Assembly (NCBI GenBank): GCA_030141605.1
Contig: JAQGDQ010000815.1
Coordinates: 28,682 to 92,681, forward strand
Direction: 5' to 3'
Source: Tubiluchus corallicola
Lineage: Eukaryota > Animalia > Priapulida
Length of the DNA stretch: 64,000 bases
Notes under the pieces: generated by a model
Seen by the model: only the letters and a program-made list of their open reading frames with translations
Databases searched by the model: none
What the model was told of the DNA's origin: nothing
Program-made: the position numbers and the translations under genes
Part shown: positions 17,401 through 63,619 of the stretch, piece after piece
Numbering within the stretch: the first letter of the stretch is position 1
Layout: each line of letters opens with the position of its first letter

Positions 17401-20400
17401 ATGTTTACTGTTTTGTTATGCAGAATGTCTCTCTGTCTGTTTCAGCTCTCCTTTTTGGACAGAACCTCAACGGTCATGCCCGGCATATTGGCTCTATAGA
17501 CCCGCACTGTGATGTACTCGCAGTTGTAAGAGGTAAGGACACATTTACACCTGACACTTGTGGCGCCATCGTTGCAAACCACGTTACAACGTTGCCAAAT
17601 TCTGTAGTGCGTGGTATTTTTTGTGCATTTCCTCCCTACGAAGTGCATGACTTTCTGAAACTTTGAAAAAATGTTATACGGTCTCTAAATTGCACAATAT
17701 CTTGCTGCAGGCATAAAAGAACCGATCTAAATTTCAACAAAAAAAGCAGAAGAATTTTCGAAACATTTTCGATTTTGGCTGCGGAAAGTTCTACGTAAGT
17801 CGCGCAAAAAGTTTCGCAATTTTTAACTTTTTTAGACAACAGAAGGACAGAAAAGTTTACTACCTAGAAGGACCGGCATGCTACACTTGATGCAATCATA
17901 GTTGCATTCTTATGCAGAAAGAAAACTAGTAGCTATCGGTCAGATTTTATTGAAATTCAATGATGCATCGGAAAAATCATCGACTTCTTATAAAATTGAA
18001 GCAATTTATGTAGTACACTTATAATGATTCCTGTAATGGAAGATTTCACAGTGCTTCGAGAACCTGCGTTCAGTCACGCCACCTGGTGGCCTGATTGTGA
18101 GAATCGACAATCAAGCGGGTCCAGACCTCGAGTTTTTAGCGCATAATAAGGCGTCAAATAGTTCACAGATTTACATTCACTGATGTATGTTCATAGACTT
18201 ACATTCGTCGTTTAGAATGTACAATATGTATTGACGTCAATTACGCTTCTGGTCCATCTAGATAGTGGCTAATAGTGGGAAAGTAACATTTCAGTCCTGA
18301 AAATCTGCGCAATAGTAGTTTGCAGTAAACCAGGAAAAGTAACAAAAATAGGAACACCCTCCAGAGGTTCGAGATATATGCACAAAATAAAAAATTGCTT
18401 CGATTGACACTAGGGGTGAGCGTTCTCTACCAGAAAGCGAATTTAAATTTAACCGAATTTCAGTATTTTGAATCCGAATCGACTTCCAATTGACTTTGAA
18501 AGATTTTCGAACAAGTTTTCGAACCACTAGTAAAAAGTGGTCTTACAAAGATCATGCATATTACTTGACTTTGTTCTGCAGTAAAACAGCTATTAATTTG
18601 TTAAAAATTTTGCACAGTAAAGAACATAAGTGGTTGAAATGCATAATGATTCAAATCTATGATTTTAGGTTCGAATCGAATTCGAACTAAAAAACGCATT
18701 CTAATCGAATTCGTTCGAACGTTCGATACTCACCCCTAACTGACACACCTTCTACTAGTGTTAAATACGTATGTTTCACCTTCTTCGTACAGAGTAACAG
18801 TCTCTAATAACACAATAATGTGCTAATAATCAATAACCTCTTTGCTGCGTCTTGCTAATATTTTCTACGTTTTAATTTACTTGTTATTTAGTTAACGAGT
18901 TATTACGTTTTCAGATGCTTATGACAACGCGAGGTTTCTATGTGATCAATACTATTTATCGTCTCCAGAAGTAGAAATCGAAGTTTCAAATGGTGAGTGT
19001 GTATTAGCAGTGAAATGTGCAAGTACTAAACCATCTAGAATGCCAATCTGCTGTTTAATCACGTGGGTAATCATATCAGAGATGTGTGTGCCTCGGATTT
19101 CCGGATTCGCGGAGCTAGTTCCGCAAGATTTTTCTGCGGATTTGCGAAGCTGCGGACCCACACTGCTTGCGGTGCCGGTGGGGTTGCAGGTTCCAACCTA
19201 TTTCTTAATTATTATTTGTGCATCTGGCTTCAAAACTGGAATATTAAGTTTTCTAAAGATTTATTAATTATAGTTTTCTTACAATGTATTAGCCAAAAAC
19301 ACGGATAACTAGTTACTCAGTAACTGGCTTCACATAGTTACTCAGTAACTGGTTTCACACAGTTACTCAGTAACTGGCTTCACATAGTTACTCAGTAACT
19401 GGCTTCACATAGTTACTCAGTAAGTGGCTTCACATAGTTACTCAGTAACTGGTTTCACACAGTTACTCAGTAACTGGCTTCACATAGTTACTCAGTAACT
19501 GGCTGCACATAGTTCTCAGTAAGTGGCTTCACATAGTTACTCAGTAACTGGTTTCACACAGTTACTCAGTAACTGGTTTCACACAGTTACTCAGTAACTG
19601 GCTTCACACAGTTACTCAGTAACTGGCTGCACATAGTTCTCAGTAAGTGGCTTCACATAGTTACTCAGTAACTGGTTTCACACAGTTACTCAGTAACTGG
19701 TTTCACACAGTTACTCAGTAACTGGCTTCACATAGTTACTCAGTAACTGGCTGCACATAGTTCTCAGTAAGTGGCTTCACATAGTTACTCAGTAACTGGC
19801 TTCACATAGTTACTCACTAACTGGCTTCACACAGTTACTCAATAACTGGCTTCACATAGTTACTCAGTAACTGACTTCCCATAGCTACTCAGTAACTGGC
19901 TTCACATAGTTACTCAGTAACTGGCTTCGCGTGCGAAAAATCGTCACATTCCCTAATCAGCGTCTCAGTTCTAGAAACTGTAATTTTTCCGTGGCAGATC
20001 CCGTGGAGTAGGGATCCAGTTATTGTACACAGTCTGTGGATTTTGTGGAGCCACTGTACCACACTTTGCGGGCGCAAAATAAGCGGGTCTGCTCATCTCT
20101 GGACGATATTGCCTCAAGTTGAGAAGCCATTTGTTGGCCAATCGATTTGCATGAAATTGAAAACCTTTGTGTTTTAGCGAGGAGAGACATCTAGCGCCCG
20201 TTTCCGAGACACAAAAAACTGCAATAAAAATATCTTTTGCAAAATTGCTAAACTTGACGCTGCATTGCAAAATATATGCCATTCCTTATCTTCTGATTAA
20301 TTTAACTTTCCATAACGCGCAATTTTACTGTTTCTGTTAGAATTATCTGCCTCTTTTGTAGCGTTGTTGGGTACAGTACTAACTGGCTCAGGTGATATAA

Positions 20401-23400
20401 ATGTAGAGTTGTGATGCATGTGGTGGCCCCATCTGGTGGCTGAAACTGCCAACTGAATGGCTGGGCGTATGATGTGCCGTGATTTTTCAGAAAATCACAT
20501 AAAACAATAGCCTATTACTCTATTTATAACAATGTATCGGTTCATCCGTTTCAGTTATTGGAAAGCGGGATGCGTCTATAACAGGGGTGTGCAAATTGCG
20601 GCCCGCCGAGAGAATTTGTGCGGCCCGCGAAGAGATTTGTCAACCTAATGAAAGTGTGGCCCGGGCGATGAATTGAGTGTATCCAGCTGAAGTCTGTGCC
20701 ACGATCCCAAAGATAGTGTGGGTAGTTTTTTCTACTAGATCGGATGCCATTATCCCTTACAAGACGGTTGTAGCTTAATAACACTGTACTACACAGACTG
20801 TGTGATACACATTACTAATATGTATTGTAATGAAATAACCACTGTGTCCTGAAAGTAGAAATATATGGTTTGTAATATAAATTTTAATAACTTCTAAAAT
20901 AGTTTCTTGAGTGTAGTAGTAACGATGTACGCAGAGAGGATGCAAAAAAATCGTTATTAGGCCTCACTGTACTTGGCTCGTTGATCAAACTGCCTGTGGC
21001 CCGCAGGAATTGTGGGAAAGTTTAATGTGGCCCGGCTAGTCAGATAATTTGCACACCCCTGTTCTATAAGTTTGTGCGTTGCTATTTCTTGCATTTCATG
21101 TCGCTGGTTATATGTTTTTTTTATGTTTTCTAGGCAATTCAGATGCAAGTAAACGAGTAATCATGTGTTATGTACCTTCTCACTTATATCACATGCTCTT
21201 CGAGTTGTTCAAGGTATGATAAATCTTGATAATCTTCATTTTTTGTGAGTCACTGTTTAATCTGGCAAAACTGTAATTATCACAATCTAAATGGCTTCAT
21301 CAGTGGAATTCCAGTTGTTTTACTAACTACAGCAATTTAACGTGAGATTTTTGATATCTCATCAATCAGTCAGTTCTGATTTTGATGTTTTTTGCATTCG
21401 GTTACAAATTTGTGTTGAAATTAAGCGCAATTTTCAATTAAATTAAATTAGTGAATATGCTGCTATGAGAAATCCAATAGATGTTTTTCTTTCCACACAT
21501 ATTTTCAATTAAATTTGTTGAATTAATTGAAAATATGTGTGGAAAGAAAAACATATATTGGATTTCTCATAGCAGCATATTCACTAATTTGTGCGGCTGG
21601 AGAGAGCTACGTTGAGGTCTGTGCAGTTAGCCTGGTTTGGTAGCTCGGAAATATTAGAAATATGTGTTTCCACCCTTGTCCTTTCAAAATTTACTGCAGT
21701 TGCTGCATCATTGTACATTTTATGGCCAAAGATAATGTATGCATGTTCATAATATTTCCTTCCTCCATGTTTATCCAACATATGTATGTTTTAGAATATG
21801 TTCATAGCATTTCCTTTCCCCTTGTTTGTCCAACATACGTGTGTTTTAGAATATGTTCATAGCATTTCCTTTCCCCTTGTTTGTCCAACATACGTGTGTT
21901 TTCCAATATGTTCATAGCATTTCCTTCCCCATGTTTGTCCAACATACGTGTGTTTTCGAATATGTTCATAGCATTTCCTTTCCCCTTGTTTGTCCAACAT
22001 ACGTGTGTTTTCCAATATGTTCATAGCATTTCCTTTCCCCTTGTTTGTCCAACATACGTGTGTTTTCCAATATGTTCATAGCATTTCCTTTCCCCATGTT
22101 TGTCCAACATACGTGTGTTTTCCAATATGTTCATAGCATTTCCTTTCCCCATGTTTGTCCAACATACGTGTGTTTTCGAATATGTTCATAGCATTTCCTT
22201 TCCCCTTGTTTGTCCAACATACGTGTGTTTTCCAATATGTTCATAGCATTTCCTTTCCCCATGTTTGTCCAACATACATGTGTTTTCGAATATGTTCATA
22301 GCATTTCCTTTCCCCTTGTTTGTCCAACATACATGTGTTTTCCAATATGTTCATAGCATTTCCTTTCCCCATGTTTGTCCAACATACACGTGTTTTCCAA
22401 TATGTTCATAGCATTTCCTTTCCCCTTGTTTGTCCAACATACGTGTGTTTTCCAATATGTTCATAGCATTTCCTTTCCCCATGTTTGTCCAACATACGTG
22501 TGTTTTCCAATATGTTCATAGCATTTCCTTTCCCCATGTTTGTCCAACATACGTGTGTTTTCCAATATGTTCATAGCATTTCCTTTCCCCTTGTTTATCC
22601 AACATACGTGTGTTTTCCAATATGTTCATAGCATTTCCTTTCCCCTTGTTTATCCAACATACGTGTGTTTTCCAATATGTTCATAGCATTTCCTTTCCCC
22701 TTGTTTGTCCAACATATGTGTGTTTTGGAATATGTTCATAGCATTTCCTTTTCCCATGTTTGTCCAACATATGTGAAATTTCAAACATACCTTTCATTTT
22801 AAATGTAAGTTATTTGCATTTATATATAAATGATAGTCGTTAGTTTTGCCTTTTTTTGTTTGTTTAGAATGCAATGCGAGCCGTAGTCGAGTTTCACGGT
22901 GAAACTGGGGATTATCCAAAGATAAAAGTTAATCTAGTCCTTGGTGCCGAGGATTTGACCATTAAGGTAACTAAAGCACAAAAATCCTTTACTTACATGA
23001 AAGCTAAAAAAATTCGTTTTGAAATTTTGTACCACTTGCATACTGTCTAATTGCGCATAGAGCTTGTATCAGCAGTAACGCTGTATAAAATTTGTAAATT
23101 TAAACTCCCGCAATGACCGTTAGGCGCAGCCATTTTAACGTTAAGTTGTTTGAAACGAGTTTAGATAACATTGGGTAAATTTTGAAAAAAAGGAGAGCAT
23201 TCGTAATGCTGTATTCACTAATGATTTACAAGCTTTATACAGCGTACAAAGAGTGATTTTTAAAAAAAACTTTTTTGATGAAGATTGATTTCTTGTCCTT
23301 TGATTTTGCAATAATAACTTTGTTCGTAGCACCACCAGTAAGTTGCTGTAGCAGTTTCTGATGAAAAGTCAACCACACGTGGACTCATTGTTGACAGATC

Positions 23401-26400
23401 CAAGTAGTTTAGCCTATTGTAGCCCATAGATTTGGACATATGACTGCAAGTAGTACAATTACACACTTGCATTGTTTTCTTAACTCGCCCCTAGATGGCA
23501 GTCAAGTACGACTGCAAGTAGTGCAGTTATACACTTGTATTGTTTGTTTAACTCGCCCCTAGATGGCAGTCAAGTACGACTGCAAGTAGTGCAGTTATAC
23601 ACTTGTATTGTTTGTTTGTTTAACTCGCCCCTAGATGGCAGTCAAGTACGACTACAAATAGTGCAGTTATACACTTGTATTGTTTGTTTAGCTCGCCCCT
23701 AGATGGCAGTCAAGTACGACTGCAAGTAGTGCAGTTACACACTTGCGTTGTTTTTTTAACTCGCCCCTAGATGGCAGACAATAATTGCTCAGTCACCAAA
23801 GCAACACCAACTTTAGCAATGCCCATTCCGGCAGCGTGAAGTTAGAAGCTACAGCAGGCCAATGAACATAGCAGCTGCGTGTCACAATCACCATGGCAAC
23901 GTGTTGTTTCAGCTAAGCTGTGGCTTGTTGCTGCGTGAAATTTTACACAATTTTTTTACAAATATCATTAGCACACAGCATTTGCTTGAACAACGTATTC
24001 AGTTGGATATTTCATTAGCTATTTGAAGATGCTGGCTGCTGTTTTTGTTTAGTTAGGCAAATAACTTAACCGTTTGAGAAAAATCTGCCGGTACCCATGA
24101 AAAACGCTTCATTTGCTGAACAAAACAGCATAAAACACTTTATGTATTTACTGAAAACGCACAAAACCCAAAAATGATCTTGACACAAAAATGTGGTCAT
24201 TACTGTGAAAGTCATGTTTGAAGTTGTAGATCACTCACTTGTAGAACAAGAATAAAAAATCTATAATACATATGTGCACTGCACAAAACAGAAAAGTGTT
24301 TATTAAACTAAAGACACATGAGTAGCATGTCTGCTGTACTGAACACTGAGAATGAGAGAGTCCTGCACTGAACACTGAGAGTTAGAGAGACTAGAAAGTA
24401 AAACCAGTCAGTATATATAGGTATAGGTGTCCTATGCAGACTTGCACAGGCTTCACAACAACCATTACTTTAAAATAGGGAGAGAACCAGTGAATATGCA
24501 TTCACTGGACTATACAATTATACTGGGGGTAAGTAGCTGGTAGAATGTAACAGGATTAGTTCATAGATGGCAGCACAAAATTAAAAATGTCAATTACAAC
24601 TTCCACAATTACGAAGCTGAAAAACCCCTCTTAATAGATCCATTGGTTGGTTTTACCTGCAAAGATTCATTGTAACAAAAATTAAGGAATATTTGTGTAA
24701 AAAGTGAAATTTATCGATGACCAGTAAGTTAATCAGGCACAACAATGAAACTTGTAATTGCATTATTCGCATTAGCTCGAAACTCAGTAAATTTTGGACT
24801 TAAATGTATTGGACATTTTTCAGATGTCTGATCTTGGTGGCGGAATACCTCGGAGTCAGATCGACATGCTGTTTCAGTACATGTATTCAACCGCACCGCG
24901 ACCTCTACCGGGCAATTCCGACGTCACCGTACCGCTGGCTGGATACGGATACGGCCTACCTCTGTCCAGGCTGTACGCTCGCTACTTTCAGGGCGACCTG
25001 CAGATTTACTCCGTCGAAGGATACGGCACCGATGCCATGGTTTATCTCAAGGTAACTTTATTGTCTGAACGAATCAAACTTTTCTATCGTTGGCCCAAAT
25101 GGTTTGTAGTGACGGGCGATTTTCAAATTTTCTCATTCAGTTACAAATCTTGTTCTTGTAATTTGAAATCCCGATTAAACTTTTGCGGTAATTTTCTAGT
25201 GTTTTAGCCATATTTTCCCAAACATTGCAGCACTGAAATATAGCCAGGCCACTTTATTTAGGTTATTTGACCTAAATAGCCTAAATAGCTTATTTAGGTT
25301 GTTTTTCAGATTTTATTTAGGTCATTTTAGGTTTTTGTTAAATTAGTGCTGAATTCGATGCCAAAAAGTCAGATTTTTAGGCTGTTATAGTGATATTCAT
25401 TTATTTTGTTCTTTCATTTCAACACAGTGAATAAATTGTACCAAATTATTCCTTATCACTATCAGTTATCACATTTTCATCAGTTCAAAAAAACTGTTTT
25501 GCTTGGAGGCACCCCCCCCCCTCCAGGCTGAAGTCTGTCATGCTCTGCTTGTAGCAATCTTTGATTTCCCCAACAATGCTAAAGTCAGCCTCTACAGTAG
25601 CAGTTGACAGAGAGAGAGTTGCATGTCCTCCAGAAAATTCCATCAAGGAAGAGTAGCGATCGAAGTTCTTCCAAGCTTTCTTTAATTAAAACAGCTAACC
25701 GTGTCCTAAAATTTCACCCTAACTTTATTAAGTTTCATAGTTTCCTTCCCAATGAAATCCAAGCTCGAAGTTTGCATAACGAGTAAAACGTTCGAAATCG
25801 CGTTCCATACTTTCTTTGGAAATGTCGCCTTCACATGCGATTTCATCTTATATAAAGTGCCGTGAAAAAGTTAAAAGTATTAGAAAATTAGAGACTGTCT
25901 TTCTGTTTTCATGTAAAACTGAAATTTGATGAAGTGTGCCATTTTTAACGTTTAAAGTTCAAATAAAAACGTGTCGAAATGCAACATATTGTGCGTACGA
26001 GCGAAATAGTCATTTAACTATTAAGTACTATAAGCCAGCACAAAACTTTAGATTGCATATTACTCTTGTCAAATGCAAAAGTGAGTTTTGCCTATTTAAA
26101 ACGGAACAAGTTTAGTTTCTAACAAGTAAAAGACCTCACTTATTGCCTGTGAACCTTGTTTGATGTTTTTGATATTCTGTGCTAATAACATTTTTGCCGA
26201 AGTAAAGCCCCTTCTTTGCTTTAGGCACTTGAAAGTGAAGCGAACGAGCTAATCCCGGTCTTCAACAAAACGTCGCTGAAGCAATACCGTCAAGGCATCG
26301 CGACGCCCGACTGGACGACGTCCACCAGCTCCTTCGCCAGTAAATCCTTTAGCGTTGTGGGCGCACGATGTATGCAGGCGTACGCACGAAACGTGCAGTC

Positions 26401-31317: not shown

Positions 31318-32013
31318 ATGCCAACCTCATCGCCCACCACGTGGACTAAAGAGCTCCATGATCAACATACTGGTAGTTCACCAAAGATTAAAAGTGGTTC
31401 ACCTCCAAAGGCAGGTGCATTTAGAGAGAGGCCATTGACCAAGAACTCTACGTTTAAGAAATTTTACGAAAGAGGAGACTTTCCTATTGCTCTCGAGCAC
31501 GACACAAAGGGAAATAAGATTGCTTGGAAACTTGAAATAGAAAAGCTTGATTTTCATCACTATCTTCCTCTGTTTTTCGATGGCCTGTGTGAGAGTACTC
31601 ATCCGTGTGAGTTTTTCGCTCGGCGAGGAGTTCACGACATGTTGGAACACGGCGGTTCCAAAATTCTTCCAGTTGTACCTCAGTTAATCATACCGATCAA
31701 AAATGCACTGAACACGAGAAATCTGACAGTTGTCTGCACGACCCTCAAGGTAATCCAACACTTAGTGGTTTCTGGCGAGATGATTGGTCAGGCACTGGTT
31801 CCGTATTACCGACAGATTCTGCCCATCTTAAACCTCTTCAAGAATAAGAATATAAACTCAGGAGACAAGATATACTACGGACAGCAGAAACGGGAAAATG
31901 TTGGTGATTTAATTGAGGAAACTTTGGAAGTTCTGGAGCGTTACGGAGGAGAGGATGCATTCATTAACATCAAGTATATGATACCAACTTATGAATCTTG
32001 CATACAGAACTGA
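31318..32013 (+). CDS. PACRG: Parkin co-regulated gene protein (axonemal inner-junction protein), single coding exon, 231 aa
   Basis: Uninterrupted ORF from ATG 31318 to TGA 32013, with [72 protein letters not shown] and [19 protein letters not shown]. Confidence 0.97.
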
Positions 32014-36019: not shown

Positions 36020-38887
36020 CTGCACAGAAGCGGAAAAAACCGAATCAGAAATTCACGATTTGTTTTTCAACACTATACTACCAAGTCAGCACTTTCGGAC
36101 ATACAGTCAACCTCGGATCTAGGGGACACTTCCGGACTGGAAAAAACCGTCCCTTATATTCGATGTCCCTTGGAGCTGAAGTTGAGTCAGACCAAGGGAG
36201 TATCTAGGTCTGTACTTTTCTGTACTTTTACCCATATTTTTATGGATTATTGCTACACATTCAGTGCAAATGGTATGTAGGAAGCTCCTTCAGTGATGCG
36301 AGATGTATGTGACCGCGGAAACTGAGCTGTTCGAAGGCCGAGTTTGCGAAAACTTGAGGTTAAACATTGATGAATTCCGCTTTGATCATGGGGTCCCTTA
36401 TATGCGAGGTAATTTACCTGAGTTTCTATTACGCGGGATCTGAAGATATCGTCTCTTATAACCGAAAGTCCATTATATCCGAAGATTTTTACATAGGAAA
36501 AACATTCAGAAATCAGGACCAGTGTTGGTGGTTCCTTATAAGCGAGTACCTTATACCCAAGGTTGACTGTATAAACATTATCAACATACAGTAAACTTAC
36601 ACATAAATTAAATCCACTCGGACCGAAAAAAACTTAGAGTTAGACAACATTTTGAGTTAGGCGATGCTGGACTATTTTCCAGCATAGAAACTCTAAACCC
36701 CTCCTCCAGATGGCGAGCTAAATTTAGTAATGAAAGTCTGATAAGTGCCTCGTGTAATTAGTAAAATTGCTTAAAAGTCGCGATCATTTCACGCTCGGAC
36801 GCTCGCAAATTTGACTGCCTGTTCTTCCACCGATGACGTCATTCATCGACTAAGGAAAAGCGGCGCAGCATCAAAACTAGAACATTCTGCGACATTTTTG
36901 TGAGAACATTCGGTAAGCTGCTGCAGAAGTTTTGAATTAGTTTAAACGCGATGCACCTATGTAAAGTCACAATGCGCTTTCGAAAAGTCACGAAGTTGAT
37001 GCAGCTAACAGCATAAATTCTGCTGCTCCTAAAACTAGATTTGGTTGAAGTTGTTGCATATCTTTATTTATCTTAGCTATCCGAGTTGTTATTGGTTTAC
37101 CTGGCTGTTTTTTGCAAAGTTTTAAGGCTTCTTCTAAGGTAATTCATACTGGTGTTTCACTTTGTAATCTGAGAAAGTGTCCTAATATAGGTTTTACACG
37201 TCAAATGTAGACACAGGAAAGTTCAAATGTGACTTAGGTAAGTCAAATGTAGACATAGGAATTTCGAATGTGTTTTGGTAACTCAGATGTGACTTAGGTA
37301 AGTCAAATGTAGACATAGGACATTTGACTTGACATGTGTCTACATTTGACTTACCAAAAACGCTTAAGATTTGTTGAAAATCATTGTTAACACATTTCAA
37401 CTGCCTAAGTCTACGTTTGAGTTACCAAGACACATTTGAATTACCTAAATCTACATTTGACTTAACATAGGTCTACATTTGACGTGTAAAACCTATATTT
37501 GAATCTTCAGAGCTTGACTTTTGAACTCTAGAGAACTTGTTTCATTCTAGTATATAAATCTTCGGCCATCTTGTTACATCATACAATAATTGTCTAGTGA
37601 ATGGCAGCTACTATGGCAGAAACAATCTATACCATGCTAGTATAAATTAACTATATAGTGCACAGACAATAATAGTAAAATAAACCCAACATACAGTCTA
37701 GCCTCGTTATCTCGCCACTGTCCGTCTAGGGCAAATTTTTGGCGAGAGGCGAGTATGGCGAGATAACGGGAATATAACGAAGTTAGTTTATATGTATATA
37801 CATAATAGGTGATTAACATAGTGTTCCTCTATGTACATATAAAATATATTTCGCATTATAGGATTAAGACAAAACAGTTTTTGCTTCAGAGACATCATGT
37901 AAAGTTGCTCACACTTTGTGGAAACTCAAACTTAAACGCAGCTTTGGTGTTATAGAGTAAGGATATCGGTGACGCTTTAGTTTCTCTGCGCATTAACCAA
38001 CCACAGCACTCCTAATCTAATCCTGGTGAGACACACACTAGATTATTTATGTCTGTCTATCGCGTACAGTATCATTGCCTACATACCGCGGTTATATTGA
38101 TCGACACGCGGTATATGTATTGATCGATTCACCTCTGAGTTTGTCTGTTTGGCGACATAACGAATATAGTTTACATAAGCATTCATCCTAGCATGACGTG
38201 GCGAGGGCGAGAAGCGAGTGTGGCGACTTGACGAGGTAAATATCAAAGCAGGAAATCCGTCCTGGTGCTTTCTATGGCGAGAGACGAGTTTGGCGGCATA
38301 ACGAGGGGCGAGATAACGAGGCTAGACTGTACTAAGTCATTTGACAAAACTTGAAGATCAACATTAGAACACTTACTAGAATACTTTCAACTAGTTTACG
38401 TCGCACATCTAAGCTTAATGGCAAGTCCTCTTTGACAGTGAGTCTACCATCATTAAACTGCACGGGGAATGAAAAACCTAGACCATTCGACACTCCATAC
38501 TGTCCTAAAATAAATATATTTTTATTAACTGAAATACTCGCCCCGTTAAATAAATGCAGATACTTGGCAATTCAACAAACAGAATCAAACATCACAGTAC
38601 ATTACTATGATTCTGCATTACAGCAGTAATTGACTTAATTTACGATAAATTAGTGAATGTTGTACGATTATTTCAAAGCAAAGAAACTGGTTTGGACTCG
38701 TGAAGCCAGAGGCCATTCAAACTAAGTGACTTGTGGTGAAATCTTAAAAGGGGTGGGTTGATACACAAAGCAAAACTGGTCCATTGTGATATCTCGTTTT
38801 CCATCTGAAACAAGGTAGTAATAAAAAGGCGTAAAATTTAGAGTTTAAAAACTTATCTTATTTGGAAAGAGAAAGAGAGGGAGAGAA

Positions 38888-39102: not shown

Positions 39103-41761
39103 TGGAGAGAGAGAGAGAGAGATGGAGAGAGAAAGAGGCAGAGGAAGAGAAACAGAGGGAGATATGAAAAAGAGACAAGAGTATAATGCTTAACATGAAT
39201 TAAGTACGAACTGACCAGATGATATAACACCAAGCGAATGTAAATGACCATCCTGGGAACGACCATTCCACCACAACTTCATGATGTTCAATACGTCCAC
39301 AGATAAACACATATCACCTCCGCTAGAACCGAGGACAGCCTGAAAAATTCGTACGTCAAAATCTAGATTAAACCAGTTACAGAAAAATTATCCATACACA
39401 AACCAAAATAACCAATCGTTTGGATTTTACGCATGTACGCATAGCAATGTTGATAATTTTCCATTTTTTTATTACAAATTTGCAAAAATGAATGTCGCGG
39501 CCCACTACAAGCCAAAGTCTGGCATTCCGCAAAGTGGCCTATTTAATGTATTTCCTCTTACTACATTCACATGCAGTTAATGTACAGTCAACATCGGATA
39601 TACGGGACACCTCGGGACCGGAAAAAACCATCCCGTATATTCGATGTCCCTTATAGTCAAAGTTGAGTCAGACCGAGGGTGTATATCTAGACCTGTACTT
39701 TTCTGTATTTTTACCCATATTTTTATGGATAATTGCTACACATTCAGTGCAAACGGTATGTAGGAAGCTCCTTCAGTAATGCGAGATATATGTGACCACG
39801 GAAACCGAGTAGTTCGAAGGCAGAGTTTGCGAAAAATTGAGGTTAAAAGTTGATCAATTTCGCTTTGATCATAGAGTCCCTTATATGCGAGGTAATTTAC
39901 CTGGGTTTCTATTACGCGGGATCTGAAGATAACGTTCCGTATAACCGAAAGTCTCTATATCCGAGTACAGGAAAAACGTTACAAAAAATCGGGACCAATG
40001 TTGGTGGTTCCTTATAAGTGAGTGTCCCTTATAACGAGTACCTTATACACGAAGATTTTTACATAGGAAAAACGTTACAAAATTCGGGACCAGTGTTGGT
40101 GGTCCCTTATAAGTGAGTGTCCCTTATAAGCGAGTACGTTATACCCGAAGTTGACTGTATAAGATGATGTAATATTTTTTATACCTCTCTGCATTTTTTA
40201 ATTTTTTCTTGGAACTCGTGCTGCAGCCATTTTCTATCGTACAACACATCGAGCACCGGTCTCGAATATGTGTCCGGACCAAAGATCGCCGAATCAAGGC
40301 GATACACTCGAGCTGTGCTGACATCTGCATATTCGTTCACATTCAAGTTACCCCATACGATGACGTCCCGGACGTCACTAGCATGGACCGACAATTCCGA
40401 TGCGACGAGAGACCGGGCAATGTTCTCCGTTTCTTTGCTGAAGAATACAATGTTTTCCTTGGGAACGTTTGTCGCATAAAATAATAACACTGTAGCCGCC
40501 ACGTTCACGGGCCCCGTGCCAACGATAAGAATTTTCGCAGTTTGCATCTTCGCCTTTTGCATTATTTTACCATATTGCTTGAATATATTGGCAAATGACC
40601 ATAGAGCTTCGGCATCGATTTCTTTTAGTGTGTCTTCATCGGGTATTGAGGGAATTATATCGTCTACTAATTCTTCTACAATTGAGCTTGCTACTTCTTC
40701 GGAACTTGGTGGAATACTGTCCTCAACCAATCCTTCGACCACTTTGTACACAACTTGTTCACTTGTTGATAGAATGCTATCCTCTACGACTTCCGTGACG
40801 ATTCTATCTATAATTTTTCTAGGTCGCAGATAAAAGCTGTCTCTAACGATTTCTTGCACGAGAGCCCACACCATTTGTTTGGGTTTCAAGCAGAGACTGT
40901 TGCCGATAATTTCCCGCACAATTCTGCCCACGATTTCCGCTGGTTCCAAGGCACGATTTTCCTGGATGATTTTTGTCACCACTGCTTCTACGATTTCTCT
41001 AGCTCTGCGCAAAAGTCTTTCTTCGCTTCCCAATTCTCGAGAGACTATTGAGATAATTTCTCCACCATCGGCTCCCATAAGATCAAGCGAAGACTCGATT
41101 TCGATGGGTTCGGGCTGAACAATTATCGAAGGAGTTAACCACACCGGCTTGCTTTCAATTATCTCATCAACTGCTGCGAGAATTCTTTCTATTATCCAAT
41201 TAACAGTTTCTTCCGCTGTTTCTCGTGGCAGCATACAATCAAGCAAAACGATGAAACTACAGTTCTGAAACGCCTCCGCTGCGTTCCTCGTTATCACGAC
41301 CTCTCTCAGCGTAGGTGAACACATATCCATCATCTCAGCCTCCAAGCCTTGCAGCTCTTCGTCAGAATCCTCCTCGTTAGCAAGCAAACGCAAGCACAGT
41401 TGATAATCGTCGGAGAATATGTGACCGCACAGGATCTGTTGAATGATGCAGTAAGCAGTTTTAGTGCAAGGTTTACTGATGCACACATAGTAAGGATTAT
41501 AAGCAGCTTTTCGTGCCGCCATCTTTCCGTCTTCTTTAACTCTTTCCCGGAGGTTCTCTGCTGCACAGCCTCTTAAATACTCCATGTCAAAATCGAGCTT
41601 AATGTTGTAGTAGAAGTTCACGTAGTCTTCAAATTCGGTCGCTCCTCCCAGGTACAATCCTTTGCCTCCGCGATCAATTAGCTCACGCCATATTAGCGGC
41701 GATGACGAATGTGTCCAGTTGTTTGTGCGGCAAACTTGTTCTAGCCACTCCTAAAGCAAAC

Positions 41762-41806
<45 letters not shown>

Positions 41807-44086
41807 CTTTATTTAAAGGCGGCTTTTGGGTCAACAATTAACATTAGCTCAAAGAGTTATTATCGCCGACTGTAAATAACAACCTACAACTACATAACAG
41901 ACACTATTATTACCCCACTTTTACACTAAATACCACGTCTCAGGCAGCGCAAAGCATGTACCATTTTTAAAGTCTTTGGTATTACCCGGCCGCTGGTTCG
42001 AACTCACGACCTCCCAGACGGAAAGCAGACGCATTACCGCTAGACTAAACCGTCTGGTATAAAATTGTAAAGTAAAGGGATGTAAATAATTGTAAAGTAA
42101 TGATATTATAACATATTGGTGCAGTATACTTTGCTTAATATATATTGTTTATTGAGCAAAAAGGTACATATGATATTTTACAGAATTACACTCTTAAGTT
42201 AGTTCATTTGTACAATATATAAAGCAAAATATATCTTAAACTGTAGGTGAAAACCATCTACTCTTTAAAATATTGAAAGGAAAGATGCTATATTTTCAAA
42301 AATTACTTACGTAAAAGAATTATTACCACAAAAATACAATTTCACGTTCGTGCCACTAGTTCTTCCATGTTACATGCATTTTGCCATTCGCTACGTAGGC
42401 GGGCACTAGCAACGGCATTTCGGAAACGCTTTGCACAAAAATGCTGTACCTCTCAGTTCAGATGCATTAGTTTGTGACGAACTGCACAAGTTCGACAGCT
42501 CATGCGTGAGCACAGCAGTAAATATAAAATTAAATTTTTATCTTAAAACTTTCCTAGTTTTAGTACAGCACACTAAATATCTTACAGTAGCACTGTACTT
42601 CAATTTTCGCTTTCACAAACACGTGCAACATGCTCGTGGAATATTTTTGCTGTTGAAAATCACGTTAGTTTGTGAAGTCATCAATAGTTGGGCTCTCTTG
42701 CCATTAATCAAGTTTTTAATGTAATTACTAGAAATGCTTTGGCAGTATTAATTGTGTTAAAACGTATACTTTTTATCAGACATGAAGATGGGTTAGTAAG
42801 TGAAAAATCAACCTGTCTTCCTTTAAATTGAGCACTGCAGTTCTGAAGTGCAGTTTAAGAACTAATTTCCGAGCAGTCCTACAAAATGCAAACAACTGCT
42901 CATTTTAATACCACGATGCCCGATTAGCATCAATATTAACAGACAGATGGCAAATTGACAGTTAAGTTTAGCATACCCTCCATTCACAACCGTGAATCAT
43001 AATCTTGTGAACGTCAAAGTTTGGTAATCTTTTTGACATGTCTTCTGCAAGTAATTCTACTCTTGCAAATACCGGGCAGTCGGCAATACCTGAAAGAGGA
43101 AATAATTATGCAAAGTGTACATTAGTGGACACATGTACAAGTGCCTTTAAACTGATCTGTCACCTTCATCTCTGATTTGTTAACCTTGAAAAAGGGAAAA
43201 TCAATTTTTGCCTATTTTACTGTCAAATACAAAGAAATGGTCATTGTGACATTTCTGTCAAATTTTGTTTAAATTGAATCGAGTTCTTTTGAAACACAAC
43301 TATTAAGCACTGGCAACACATAGATGGAGAAATATGGCTCTAAGCAAGCTGTCAGACATGTCATAAGCACTTTTATATACAATCAAAAAAACGCATAAAT
43401 TTTAAATATATTTATATACTTATTTATTTATTTTTAAATTCAAACATTTACAATTATGTAAACAGTTAACGGCATTCACACATAAACAGTGTCCACCAGA
43501 CCTAATGTTTTTGTTTGGGAAAGTTGATTTGCTATTTTAAAGTAACTGTTATATAGTTTTAATATATATATATATATACTAATATCTCAGTTTGCCGGAC
43601 CTCACTTTTAAGGATATCAGAAGAATTGGACAAAATCTGGACCATTAAAAAGTCCCGCATACTACGGACACAGTCCACTGTTTCGCGAGCTGACCGCTAG
43701 TTGGTGGGCCATCACTTTACTTACATCATTACGTCAGTGTAACTACAACCGTTTGCCAACCGTTTTCATATACTTCTGTACAAGGCCCGTATGCGACATT
43801 TTTGAGACAATTAGGCAATAGATACTACATTACCGGGAATCTAACACATCTGTCGTGCGCCTACTATATTAGCTTATTATCGGTAAATACGAACAATCGG
43901 CAAATTCGTATCGACATCGCCACACTTTTATCCAGCAAACCATTATATCCGTGTATATTATCATATTATATTATATTACATTATATATTTCACACACTAC
44001 ACTTCTACAACATTATCTGGAATGGATAAGAGTTTTAATTCTTTCTATGATTATTTAAGCTTACCTGCTACTACAAATTTCGCCAT
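35876..44086 (-). CDS. MDH1B: Malate dehydrogenase 1B-like protein (spliced, ~698 aa, with large internal insertion)
   Basis: Minus-strand exons 44086-44065, 43089-42977, 41750-40185, 39339-39216, 38504-38377 and 36019-35876, with canonical sites and consistent phases. N-terminus MAKFVVAGIADCPVFARVELLAE...SPLIWRELIDRGGKGLYLGG; later DVIVWGN, RVYRLDSAIFGPDTYSRPV and SLGVISSGQYGV..GLGFSFPVQF, matching MDH1B as recalled. Confidence 0.93.
37184..37499. mobile_element. Foldback-like element with modular subterminal repeats
   Basis: Ends aatataggttttacacgtcaaatgtagac / gtctacatttgacgtgtaaaacctatatt, with repeated gtcaaatgtagac modules in both orientations. Confidence 0.82.
37694..38329. mobile_element. 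Tigger/pogo-type MITE
   Basis: TA|cagtctagcctcgttatctcgcc ... ggcgagataacgaggctagactg|TA; perfect 23-bp TIR. Confidence 0.92.
38377..38504 (-). CDS. MDH1B: MDH1B exon 5 (GQYGVSNGLGFSFPVQFNDG...ESIL)
   Basis: Boundaries ttttag|GA ... CTA|gtaagt; MDH C-terminal GxYGV..G..FSFPV motif. Confidence 0.9.
38866..39165. repeat. (GA)n microsatellite / purine tract
   Basis: Long (GA)n runs; source of spurious SL/ER ORFs. Confidence 0.97.
39216..39339 (-). CDS. MDH1B: MDH1B exon 4 (AVLGSSGG...KLWWNG...HSLGVISS)
   Basis: Boundaries tttcag|GCT ... G|gtcagt; phase consistent. Confidence 0.87.
40185..41750 (-). CDS. MDH1B: MDH1B exon 3, 1566 nt (EWLEQVCRTNNW ... KKCRE)
   Basis: Boundaries ctttag|GAG ... 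GAG|gtataa; open for 522 codons; overlaps ORF 40179..41657. Confidence 0.92.
41762..42060 (-). mobile_element. tRNA-derived SINE with (TTA)n tail
   Basis: On the minus strand: A-box-like TAGTCTAGCGG, B-box GAGTTCGAACC, core ccgggtaataccaaagactttaaaaatggta, then AATAAA and an (ATT)n tail. Confidence 0.82.
42977..43089 (-). CDS. MDH1B: MDH1B exon 2 (IADCPVFARVELLAEDMSKRLPNFDVHKIMIHGCEWR)
   Basis: Boundaries ttcag|GT ... AGG|gtatgc. Confidence 0.9.
44065..44086 (-). CDS. MDH1B: MDH1B coding exon 1 (MAKFVVAG)
   Basis: ATG GCG AAA TTT GTA GTA GCA G|gtaagc on the minus strand. Confidence 0.88.

Positions 44087-46006: not shown

Positions 46007-63619
<17,613 letters not shown>

What the first reader, a model, noticed from the sequence alone, without database searches (positions are those of the whole stretch)
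40608..41222. MDH1B carries a ~200-aa insertion made of tandem 20-aa AKAP-like amphipathic helices
Seen: between FIVLLDCMLPR and ALWSFANIFKQYG the ORF has an acidic ~200-aa segment with six in-register 20-aa units at 40997-40638: EIVEAVVTKIIQENRALEPA / EIVGRIVREIIGNSLCLKPK / QMVWALVQEIVRDSFYLRPR / KIIDRIVTEVVEDSILSTSE / QVVYKVVEGLVEDSIPPSSE / EVASSIVEELVDDIIPSIPD. A seventh helix, VNWIIERILAAV, lies upstream. Each fits the hydrophobic pattern h-x-x-h-h-x-x-h-h-x-x-[hS]. The units are diverged in DNA yet keep frame, period and hydrophobic face, which points to protein-level selection. Established: this pattern is the AKAP helix consensus that binds RIIa/Dpy-30-type docking domains. As I recall, vertebrate MDH1B has only a short loop here and is linked to motile cilia and radial spokes. 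Inference: a lineage-specific multivalent docking scaffold for PKA-R or other D/D-domain proteins has been grafted into a ciliary dehydrogenase-like protein.
Basis: partly seen in the sequence, partly recalled or inferred. Interest (0 to 1): 0.85.

Follow-up and report, generated by a model that had tools for sequence, protein, structure and literature searches.

The report
Helix array inside ciliary pseudo-dehydrogenase
In what is likely a priapulid worm, the cilium protein MDH1B carries a 205-residue insertion of six evenly repeated, one-sided greasy helices in its degenerate active-site loop, which would likely act as several docking sites for protein kinase A or related cilium proteins, but binding is untested.

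Summary
The insertion (41222-40608, 205 codons) lies inside one 1566-nt exon of an intact five-exon MDH1B model. It replaces the roughly 14-residue substrate loop of the malate-dehydrogenase fold, in a protein that has lost its catalytic motifs. Six 20-residue units are real (lag-20 z 7.9, 0 of 2000 shuffles) and conserved at the protein level. The closest ortholog found (Priapulus caudatus, tree support 98/97) lacks the insertion. The loop is an insertion hot spot: 11 of 104 homologs carry 100 residues or more there, all polar and without the helix pattern. All six units fit the published hydrophobic positions of AKAP helices, and mammalian MDH1/MDH1B contacts a PKA regulatory subunit in radial spoke 3. 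A multivalent docking array for D/D domains is therefore my best reading (0.45). The pattern is not specific, however: it occurs 2.5 times per 1000 windows in ordinary MDH proteins, and a profile of the units found no AKAP. A self-packing helical repeat is a serious rival (0.3). Binding and expression are untested. The scan noted AKAP-like arrays before in other proteins and genomes, not in MDH1B.

The parts
44065..44086 (-). MDH1B exon 1 (start codon, 22 nt)
   Evidence: GT donor, phase 1
42977..43089 (-). MDH1B exon 2
   Evidence: tblastn; phases
40185..41750 (-). MDH1B exon 3, 1566 nt, holding the N-terminal domain, most of the MDH fold and the whole insertion
40608..41222 (-). 205-codon insertion (exon residues 177-381) in the MDH substrate loop, directly after the retained PR dipeptide
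41169..41207 (-). Upstream amphipathic helix (residues 182-194), 5 of 6 core positions hydrophobic
41031..41060 (-). Possible degenerate helix (residues 231-240), 4 of 6 core positions
   Evidence: helix in a low-confidence model
40938..40997 (-). Repeat unit 1
40878..40937 (-). Repeat unit 2
40818..40877 (-). Repeat unit 3
40758..40817 (-). Repeat unit 4
40698..40757 (-). Repeat unit 5
40638..40697 (-). Repeat unit 6
39216..39339 (-). MDH1B exon 4
38377..38504 (-). MDH1B exon 5 (a short last exon is expected downstream and was not located)

Best explanation
The MDH1B gene here encodes a 205-residue insertion of six 20-residue repeats in its degenerate substrate loop, and each repeat is predicted to form a four-turn amphipathic helix that would likely dock into the groove of a D/D-domain dimer (PKA regulatory subunit, SPA17/ROPN1L/CATIP type or Dpy-30 type), making this likely radial-spoke-3 subunit a multivalent anchor. 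Shown here: the insertion, its place in the loop, the loss of the catalytic motifs, the repeat and its hydrophobic pattern. Shown in mammals (papers): MDH1B pairs with MDH1 as a strut of radial spoke 3, a PKA regulatory subunit contacts that dimer, and the spoke is assembled through D/D domains on amphipathic helices. Inferred: the worm protein takes the same place; the dead loop faces solvent and tolerates long insertions; one helix-plus-linker unit was amplified in place by tandem duplication; each unit is a separate site on a short Pro/Ser-rich linker. Helices of four turns fit the wider class of D/D-interacting proteins better than strict PKA anchoring.
For: All 6 of 6 units are hydrophobic at all six core positions (5, 6, 9, 10, 13, 14) given for AKAP helices in PMC12083921 (passages), carry no charged residue on that face and no internal proline. 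Five of 6 extend to a fourth pair; that longer pattern occurs 28 times in 68,895 residues of 172 MDH-family proteins and never more than twice in one protein. Self-similarity is raised at lag 4 (z 2.9) but not at lag 7 (z -0.2), so the pairs are spaced by four rather than in coiled-coil heptads. Second codon positions are the best conserved between units (0.63). The insert is 38% hydrophobic, against 6-21% in the 11 long loops of homologs. Context: PKA-R interacts directly with the MDH1/MDH1B dimer in bovine sperm RS3, and RS3 proteins dock through RIIa or DPY30 domains (PMC11779644, passages); the flexible globular domain of PRKAR2A was placed tentatively beside the MDH dimer in mouse (10.1101/2025.05.19.654877, passages). 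Gain of an anchoring helix by insertion has a precedent in AKAP95 (PMC12203939, passages).
Against: The core pattern is common in ordinary folded proteins: 188 of 74,151 windows in 192 MDH-family proteins. The six matches descend from one unit, so they are not six independent observations. A profile of the seven helices found no AKAP chain among 25 rows up to E 10 in 177,635 solved sequences (chains under 20 residues are absent), and Pfam gave no match for 7 of 7 units. Only 1 of 36 core positions is a small residue, whereas known anchoring helices often carry alanine there (recalled). Proline at position 2 of three units limits the helix to about four turns; five are said to be needed for PKA R subunits. 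The strict 20-residue register with conserved hydrophobic linker positions would also be expected of a self-packing repeat. The closest ortholog found has no insertion. Low-depth contigs of run X1 differ from the window by 5 replacement and 3 silent changes in the insert, against 4 and 4 in the core: no sign of stronger constraint, on few and possibly erroneous sites.
Confidence: 0.45

Rival explanations
1. The six helices pack on each other as a small helical stack or bundle, which hides the hydrophobic faces and adds a rigid structural lobe or spacer to the radial spoke neck.
For: Exact 20-residue period without indels despite 15-40% identity; conserved hydrophobic residues in the linker; a face made almost only of Ile and Val; 38% hydrophobic content, high for a disordered array; the single-sequence model is best (pLDDT 60-66) over the first two units.
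Against: Pairs spaced by four rather than heptads; units 5 and 6 are strongly acidic (net -3 and -6 per 16 residues) with Pro/Ser linkers, which would disfavour tight stacking; the model of the array is low in confidence overall (pLDDT 49, pTM 0.35), which neither shows nor excludes a fold.
Confidence: 0.3
2. A tolerated tandem expansion in a dispensable loop of a dead enzyme: the helices have no specific partner, or bind another groove or surface (calmodulin or EF-hand proteins, tubulin, membrane).
For: 11 of 104 homologs have loops of 100 residues or more at this site, two visibly built from short tandem repeats (P0029, P0067); the named Macrostomum lignano protein has a 60-residue loop; Priapulus caudatus has the loop shortened; replacement changes are as frequent in the insert as in the core (weak).
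Against: All 11 other long loops are polar and lack the pattern; here the hydrophobic face survived DNA divergence to 42-60% identity between units, with second codon positions favoured.
Confidence: 0.18
3. The segment is an intron, an optional exon part or an assembly artefact and is absent from the main protein.
For: A 1566-nt exon is long beside the gene's other exons (22-128 nt); third-position GC is 0.37 in the insert against 0.52 in the core.
Against: No stop in 205 codons (chance about 8e-7), while the other two frames hold 17 and 13; among 18 AG sites at 40760-40560 none has the T-rich tract seen at the gene's true acceptors, and none of 15 GT sites near the 5' edge exceeds 5 of 9 consensus letters; a contig of run X1 bridges the 5' junction (41083-41302) and two others cover most units without gaps.
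Confidence: 0.05
4. The repeats are degenerate D/D domains themselves and fold as an internal four-helix bundle.
For: Helix-linker-helix spacing with a basic-Pro linker loosely recalls Dpy-30 and RIIa domains (recalled resemblance).
Against: A profile of 40 RIIa-type domains against the insert gave probability 0.4%; Pfam shows no RIIa or Dpy-30 match at E up to 1.
Confidence: 0.02

Closest known systems
Mammalian MDH1B in radial spoke 3 (PDB 9fqr_Xq, 9d2f_F; PMC11779644 and bioRxiv 10.1101/2025.05.19.654877, passages read)
   Same: Orthologous N-terminal domain and MDH fold (E 1.5e-59); forms the MDH1/MDH1B strut beside a PKA regulatory subunit in mammals.
   Different: Six residues separate the two matched halves in the solved chain against 204 here; no anchoring helix was mentioned for mammalian MDH1B in the passages read.
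Priapulus caudatus MDH1B (P0015, XP_014673864.1)
   Same: Best hit (43% identity) and sister in the tree (98/97).
   Different: Loop shortened, no insertion; only 43% identical, so a distant relative.
RSP3/RSPH3 and CFAP91, spoke backbones that carry several D/D docking helices (passages)
   Same: Several amphipathic helices for RIIa- and Dpy-30-type dimers in one ciliary protein.
   Different: They are extended scaffold proteins; here the helices are tandem copies inside an enzyme fold, and binding is untested.
SKIP/SPHKAP and AKAP220 (multi-site AKAPs) and AKAP95 (helix gained by insertion) (passages)
   Same: More than one anchoring helix per chain; gain of a helix by insertion.
   Different: Two sites are described, or one inserted helix, against six or seven units at a fixed 20-residue period; no FA/YA start for type I selectivity is present here.
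Long polar loop insertions in other MDH1B proteins (P0005-P0010, P0029, P0033, P0067, P0078, P0089, P0100; unnamed records)
   Same: Same site, similar length (103-269 residues), similar acidity.
   Different: 6-21% hydrophobic, no helix pattern, no sequence similarity to this insert.

Membership tests
MDH1B | Extra N-terminal globular domain ahead of an MDH-like fold | tested here: met
   both parts match MDH1B chains and named MDH1B proteins
MDH1B | Groups with named MDH1B proteins | tested here: met
   (48 rows, no MDH1 outgroup), names; best hits are MDH1B
MDH1B | Subunit of radial spoke 3, paired with MDH1 | not testable with these tools
   inferred by orthology
Active malate dehydrogenase | Gly-rich NAD motif, substrate-loop arginines, catalytic Asp/Arg/His | tested here: not met
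   against canonical MDH rows P0147 and P0160 the Gly-rich motif, the second loop Arg, the Asp-x-x-Arg motif and the His are replaced; only the first loop Arg is kept (residue roles from established knowledge)
AKAP / D/D-interacting helix | 14-18-residue segment hydrophobic at positions 5, 6, 9, 10, 13, 14 without charge or proline on the face | tested here: met
   6 of 6 units at 6 of 6 core positions; positions; background 2.5 per 1000 windows in MDH proteins
AKAP / D/D-interacting helix | Hydrophobic flanking positions 2 and 17 (five helical turns for PKA R subunits) | tested here: inconclusive
   position 2 is Ala, Pro, Pro, Pro, Ser, Ser; position 17 is Asn, Ser x4, Ile; position 18 is hydrophobic in 5 of 6
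Type I (RI-selective) AKAP | FA or YA at positions 1-2 | tested here: not met
   absent in 8 of 8 segments examined; feature
AKAP / D/D-interacting helix | Sequence match to a known anchoring-helix family | tested here: inconclusive
   no match, but 20-residue degenerate motifs are near the limit of these searches
AKAP / D/D-interacting helix | Binds a D/D dimer | not testable with these tools
   needs an overlay, peptide array or ITC experiment
AKAP / D/D-interacting helix | Helix exposed, not buried in its own fold | tested here: inconclusive
   helices predicted, packing at low confidence
RIIa-type D/D domain | Profile match to RIIa-type domains | tested here: not met
   probability 0.4%
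Known alpha-solenoid or helical repeat fold | Confident compact model matching a solved repeat fold | tested here: inconclusive
   low-confidence model

The most novel reading that the evidence does not exclude
A dead enzyme's active-site loop has been rebuilt, by tandem amplification of one helix, into a six- to seven-site anchor that loads several PKA or other D/D-domain dimers onto every radial spoke 3 of a priapulid axoneme, so the enzyme fold itself becomes the anchoring protein.
Probability: 0.3. Interest if true: 0.75.

Novelty: new variant of a known kind. Interest (0 to 1): 0.5.

Why it matters
Radial spoke 3 was only recently resolved as a hub of metabolic and signalling enzymes, and how PKA is held there differs between the two mammalian reports read (stalk docking through AKAP14/CFAP91; direct contact of PKA-R with the MDH dimer). 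A natural MDH1B with its own array of docking helices would show that the number of anchored kinases per spoke can be tuned by repeat expansion, and it gives a ready series of six diverged helices for testing D/D specificity and the spacing limit for multivalent docking. Even if the array only folds on itself, the MDH1B loop emerges as a recurrent insertion site that marks the protein as a structural pseudoenzyme.

Tried and rejected
No whole genome is held, so paralogs, D/D partners and a donor gene could not be sought. No RNA holder was listed for the exon; run X2 laid only on flanking repeats. Complex prediction of the array (residues 243-372) with two copies of a stand-in RII-beta-like D/D domain from locus L047 gave no answer (score 0.00 in both runs, mark 0.34, controls not folded, alignment not used, partner fold uncertain): it is no evidence either way. 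Single-sequence AlphaFold2 models were low in confidence (whole exon pLDDT 37; array 49). The fold search with the array model gave only generic helical matches (best Z 8.1, below the level the tool calls meaningful for helical bundles). No homolog of the repeat was found: ESM Atlas twice without a usable hit; 11 hits among 7998 candidates, none covering more than 38% of the query; none of the best 150 of 605 representatives has its best stretch inside residues 199-356, and 455 were not listed; 0 of 534 longer candidates; 0 solved sequences for the array; no look-alike among earlier scan windows. Weak Pfam rows (COMPASS-Shg1, mL44; below cut-off) were set aside. PACRG was uninformative for lineage (about 80% identical to many animals). 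Literature searches without a description of this insertion, judged from listings only: MDH1B + radial spoke (8 listed), MDH1B + insertion (12), MDH1B + Priapulus (0), multi-site AKAP terms (0), FSIP2 terms (1 each), THAHIT (0). PMC6357514 (passages) gave nothing on priapulid sperm. No supplements were read; bioRxiv supplements are closed and could show where this loop points in RS3.

Full report
Observation. The minus-strand frame 41750-40182 is open for 523 codons. Against solved structures it matches MDH1B chains best (9fqr_Xq E 1.5e-59; 9d2f_F E 2.2e-51) in two pieces, residues 1-177 and 382-518, which correspond to chain residues 46-221 and 228-363. The 205 codons between them (41222-40608) are the insertion. 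The six units lie at 40997-40638 with an exact 60-nt period. Self-similarity at lag 20 is z 7.9, above all 2000 shuffles, and lags 40 and 60 follow. Units are 15-40% identical as protein; neighbours are mostly the closest (1-2, 4-5 and 5-6 at 40%; 1-4, 1-5 and 1-6 at 15%), which points to serial duplication in place (inference). DNA identity by codon position is 0.46/0.63/0.41 against 0.31/0.29/0.28 expected, the signature of conserved hydrophobic character. DNA repeat finders do not see the array.

Is it coding? Five exons (44086-44065, 43089-42977, 41750-40185, 39339-39216, 38504-38377) join through GT-AG introns in consistent phase to 651 codons without a stop; a last exon was not located. 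The insert has no stop in frame (chance about 8e-7), against 17 and 13 in the other two frames. Of 15 GT sites near its 5' edge none exceeds 5 of 9 donor consensus letters, and of 18 AG sites near its 3' edge none has the T-rich tract of the gene's own acceptors. Three low-depth contigs (depth 2.2-4.3) of run X1, of unrecorded kind, cover most of the insert without gaps, one bridging the 5' junction. Their 16 listed differences are 5 replacement and 3 silent in the insert and 4 and 4 in the core; within the six units one is silent and one changes a polar-face residue. These are few and may include errors. Expression is not shown.

Where it sits. Aligned with canonical MDH rows, the insertion follows the PR dipeptide of the mobile substrate loop, and the protein lacks the Gly-rich NAD motif, the second loop arginine, the Asp/Arg motif and the catalytic histidine (residue roles from established knowledge). 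It is likely a pseudoenzyme. Of 162 homologs held, 104 had both halves well bounded (the set includes some MDH1-type proteins); their median loop is 14 residues against 212 here by the same anchors, 17 reach 30 residues and 11 reach 100. Those 11 are unnamed metagenome gene calls, five of them close relatives of one another; all are acidic (18-30% D+E) and poor in hydrophobic residues (6-21%, against 38% here), none matches the helix patterns, and none resembles this insert. The named Macrostomum lignano protein has a 60-residue loop. So the site is a recurrent insertion point, and what is unusual here is the content.

Lineage. In a tree of 48 rows (chosen from 172 held proteins by coverage, near-duplicates dropped, loop removed) the protein is sister to Priapulus caudatus MDH1B with support 98/97. 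No other named ecdysozoan was among the rows, so a priapulid or near relative is likely but not shown; two unreviewed notes from the same genome reached the same view. The P. caudatus protein has no insertion. No homolog of the repeat was found in any search, each with the limits given under Tried and rejected.

The helix pattern. PMC12083921 (passages) gives positions 2, 5, 6, 9, 10, 13, 14 and 17 as the hydrophobic face of AKAP helices. All six units are hydrophobic at all six core positions with no internal proline; positions 2 and 17 are mostly Pro or Ser, position 18 is hydrophobic in five; the upstream helix scores 5 of 6 and a degenerate one 4 of 6. The type I FA/YA start is absent. Background matters: the same core test passes 188 of 74,151 windows in 192 MDH-family proteins and 0 of 27,019 in 120 PACRG proteins; the four-pair version, met by 5 of 6 units, occurs 0.41 times per 1000 residues in MDH proteins. 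A recalled consensus matched seven non-overlapping sites against a mean of 1.4 in 20,000 shuffles, but this reflects the duplication, not independent support. A profile of the seven helices retrieved no AKAP among solved structures (25 unrelated rows, E 0.28 or worse), Pfam matched none of the seven, and a profile of 40 RIIa-type domains did not match the insert. AlphaFold2 without an alignment places one helix in each unit but at low confidence.

Context from papers (passages only). In mouse RS3 the MDH1/MDH1B heterodimer is one of four struts, and AKAP14, PRKAR2A and CATIP sit on the stalk next to the MDH1B N-terminal domain (10.1101/2025.05.19.654877). In bovine sperm RS3, proteins dock on CFAP91 through RIIa or DPY30 domains and PKA-R interacts directly with the MDH dimer (PMC11779644). 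PMC12203939 describes D/D-interacting proteins as mostly ciliary, says that Dpy-30 partners need four helical turns and PKA R subunits five, and reports that AKAP95 gained its helix by insertion. SKIP and AKAP220 carry two sites. PMC8339350 presents the interface as a general architectural element of cilia; PMC12399478 confirms the two helix types in RSP3.

Mechanism. I commit, at 0.45, to a docking array: the worm MDH1B would pair with MDH1 in RS3 (inferred), the dead loop would project the insert into solvent (inferred from tolerated insertions), and each four-turn helix would bind a D/D dimer, more likely of the broad ciliary class than PKA alone (inferred from helix length). The main rival, at 0.3, is a self-packing helical repeat, favoured by the strict register, the Ile/Val-only face and the conserved linker hydrophobes. 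A tolerated expansion or another partner takes 0.18, an intron or artefact 0.05, internal D/D domains 0.02.

Verdict. The feature is real and was not found described in my searches (listings only). It is a new variant of MDH1B and, if it binds, a new arrangement of a known docking principle. Arrays of AKAP-like helices were noted by this scan in other proteins (an FSIP2-like gene, a placozoan protein, unchecked). It is seen so far in one genome, without expression or binding data. Interest 0.5.

Noticed in passing
window 31318-32010 (+): Intronless PACRG open reading frame, about 80% identical to many animal PACRG proteins: a second axonemal gene 6 kb from MDH1B, either intron-free or a retrocopy.
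   Followed up: partly
window 41750-40185 (-): The N-terminal domain and most of the MDH fold lie in one 1566-nt exon, far longer than the other exons; intron loss is possible but was not compared with orthologs.
   Followed up: no
window 41494-41760: Two overlapping contigs of run X1 differ: one has 10 other letters in 151, the other none in 166; a divergent allele or a paralog may exist.
   Followed up: no
window about 18896-25204 (+): Open frames that look like exons of a pyruvate dehydrogenase kinase gene (label recalled from motifs, not tested).
   Followed up: no
window about 41820-42060 and 39540-40160: High-copy interspersed repeats in the introns on both sides of the large exon (depth in the thousands in X1); the first looks like a tRNA-derived SINE (recalled), and the second has a similar copy near 36200-36630.
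   Followed up: no
window about 57070-58650: Long tandem array with a 21-nt (7-codon) period, open in several frames on both strands; likely a minisatellite.
   Followed up: no
P0029, P0067, P0005-P0010, P0033, P0078, P0089, P0100: MDH1B homologs with 103-269-residue acidic, low-hydrophobicity loops at the same site, two built from short tandem repeats.
   Followed up: partly
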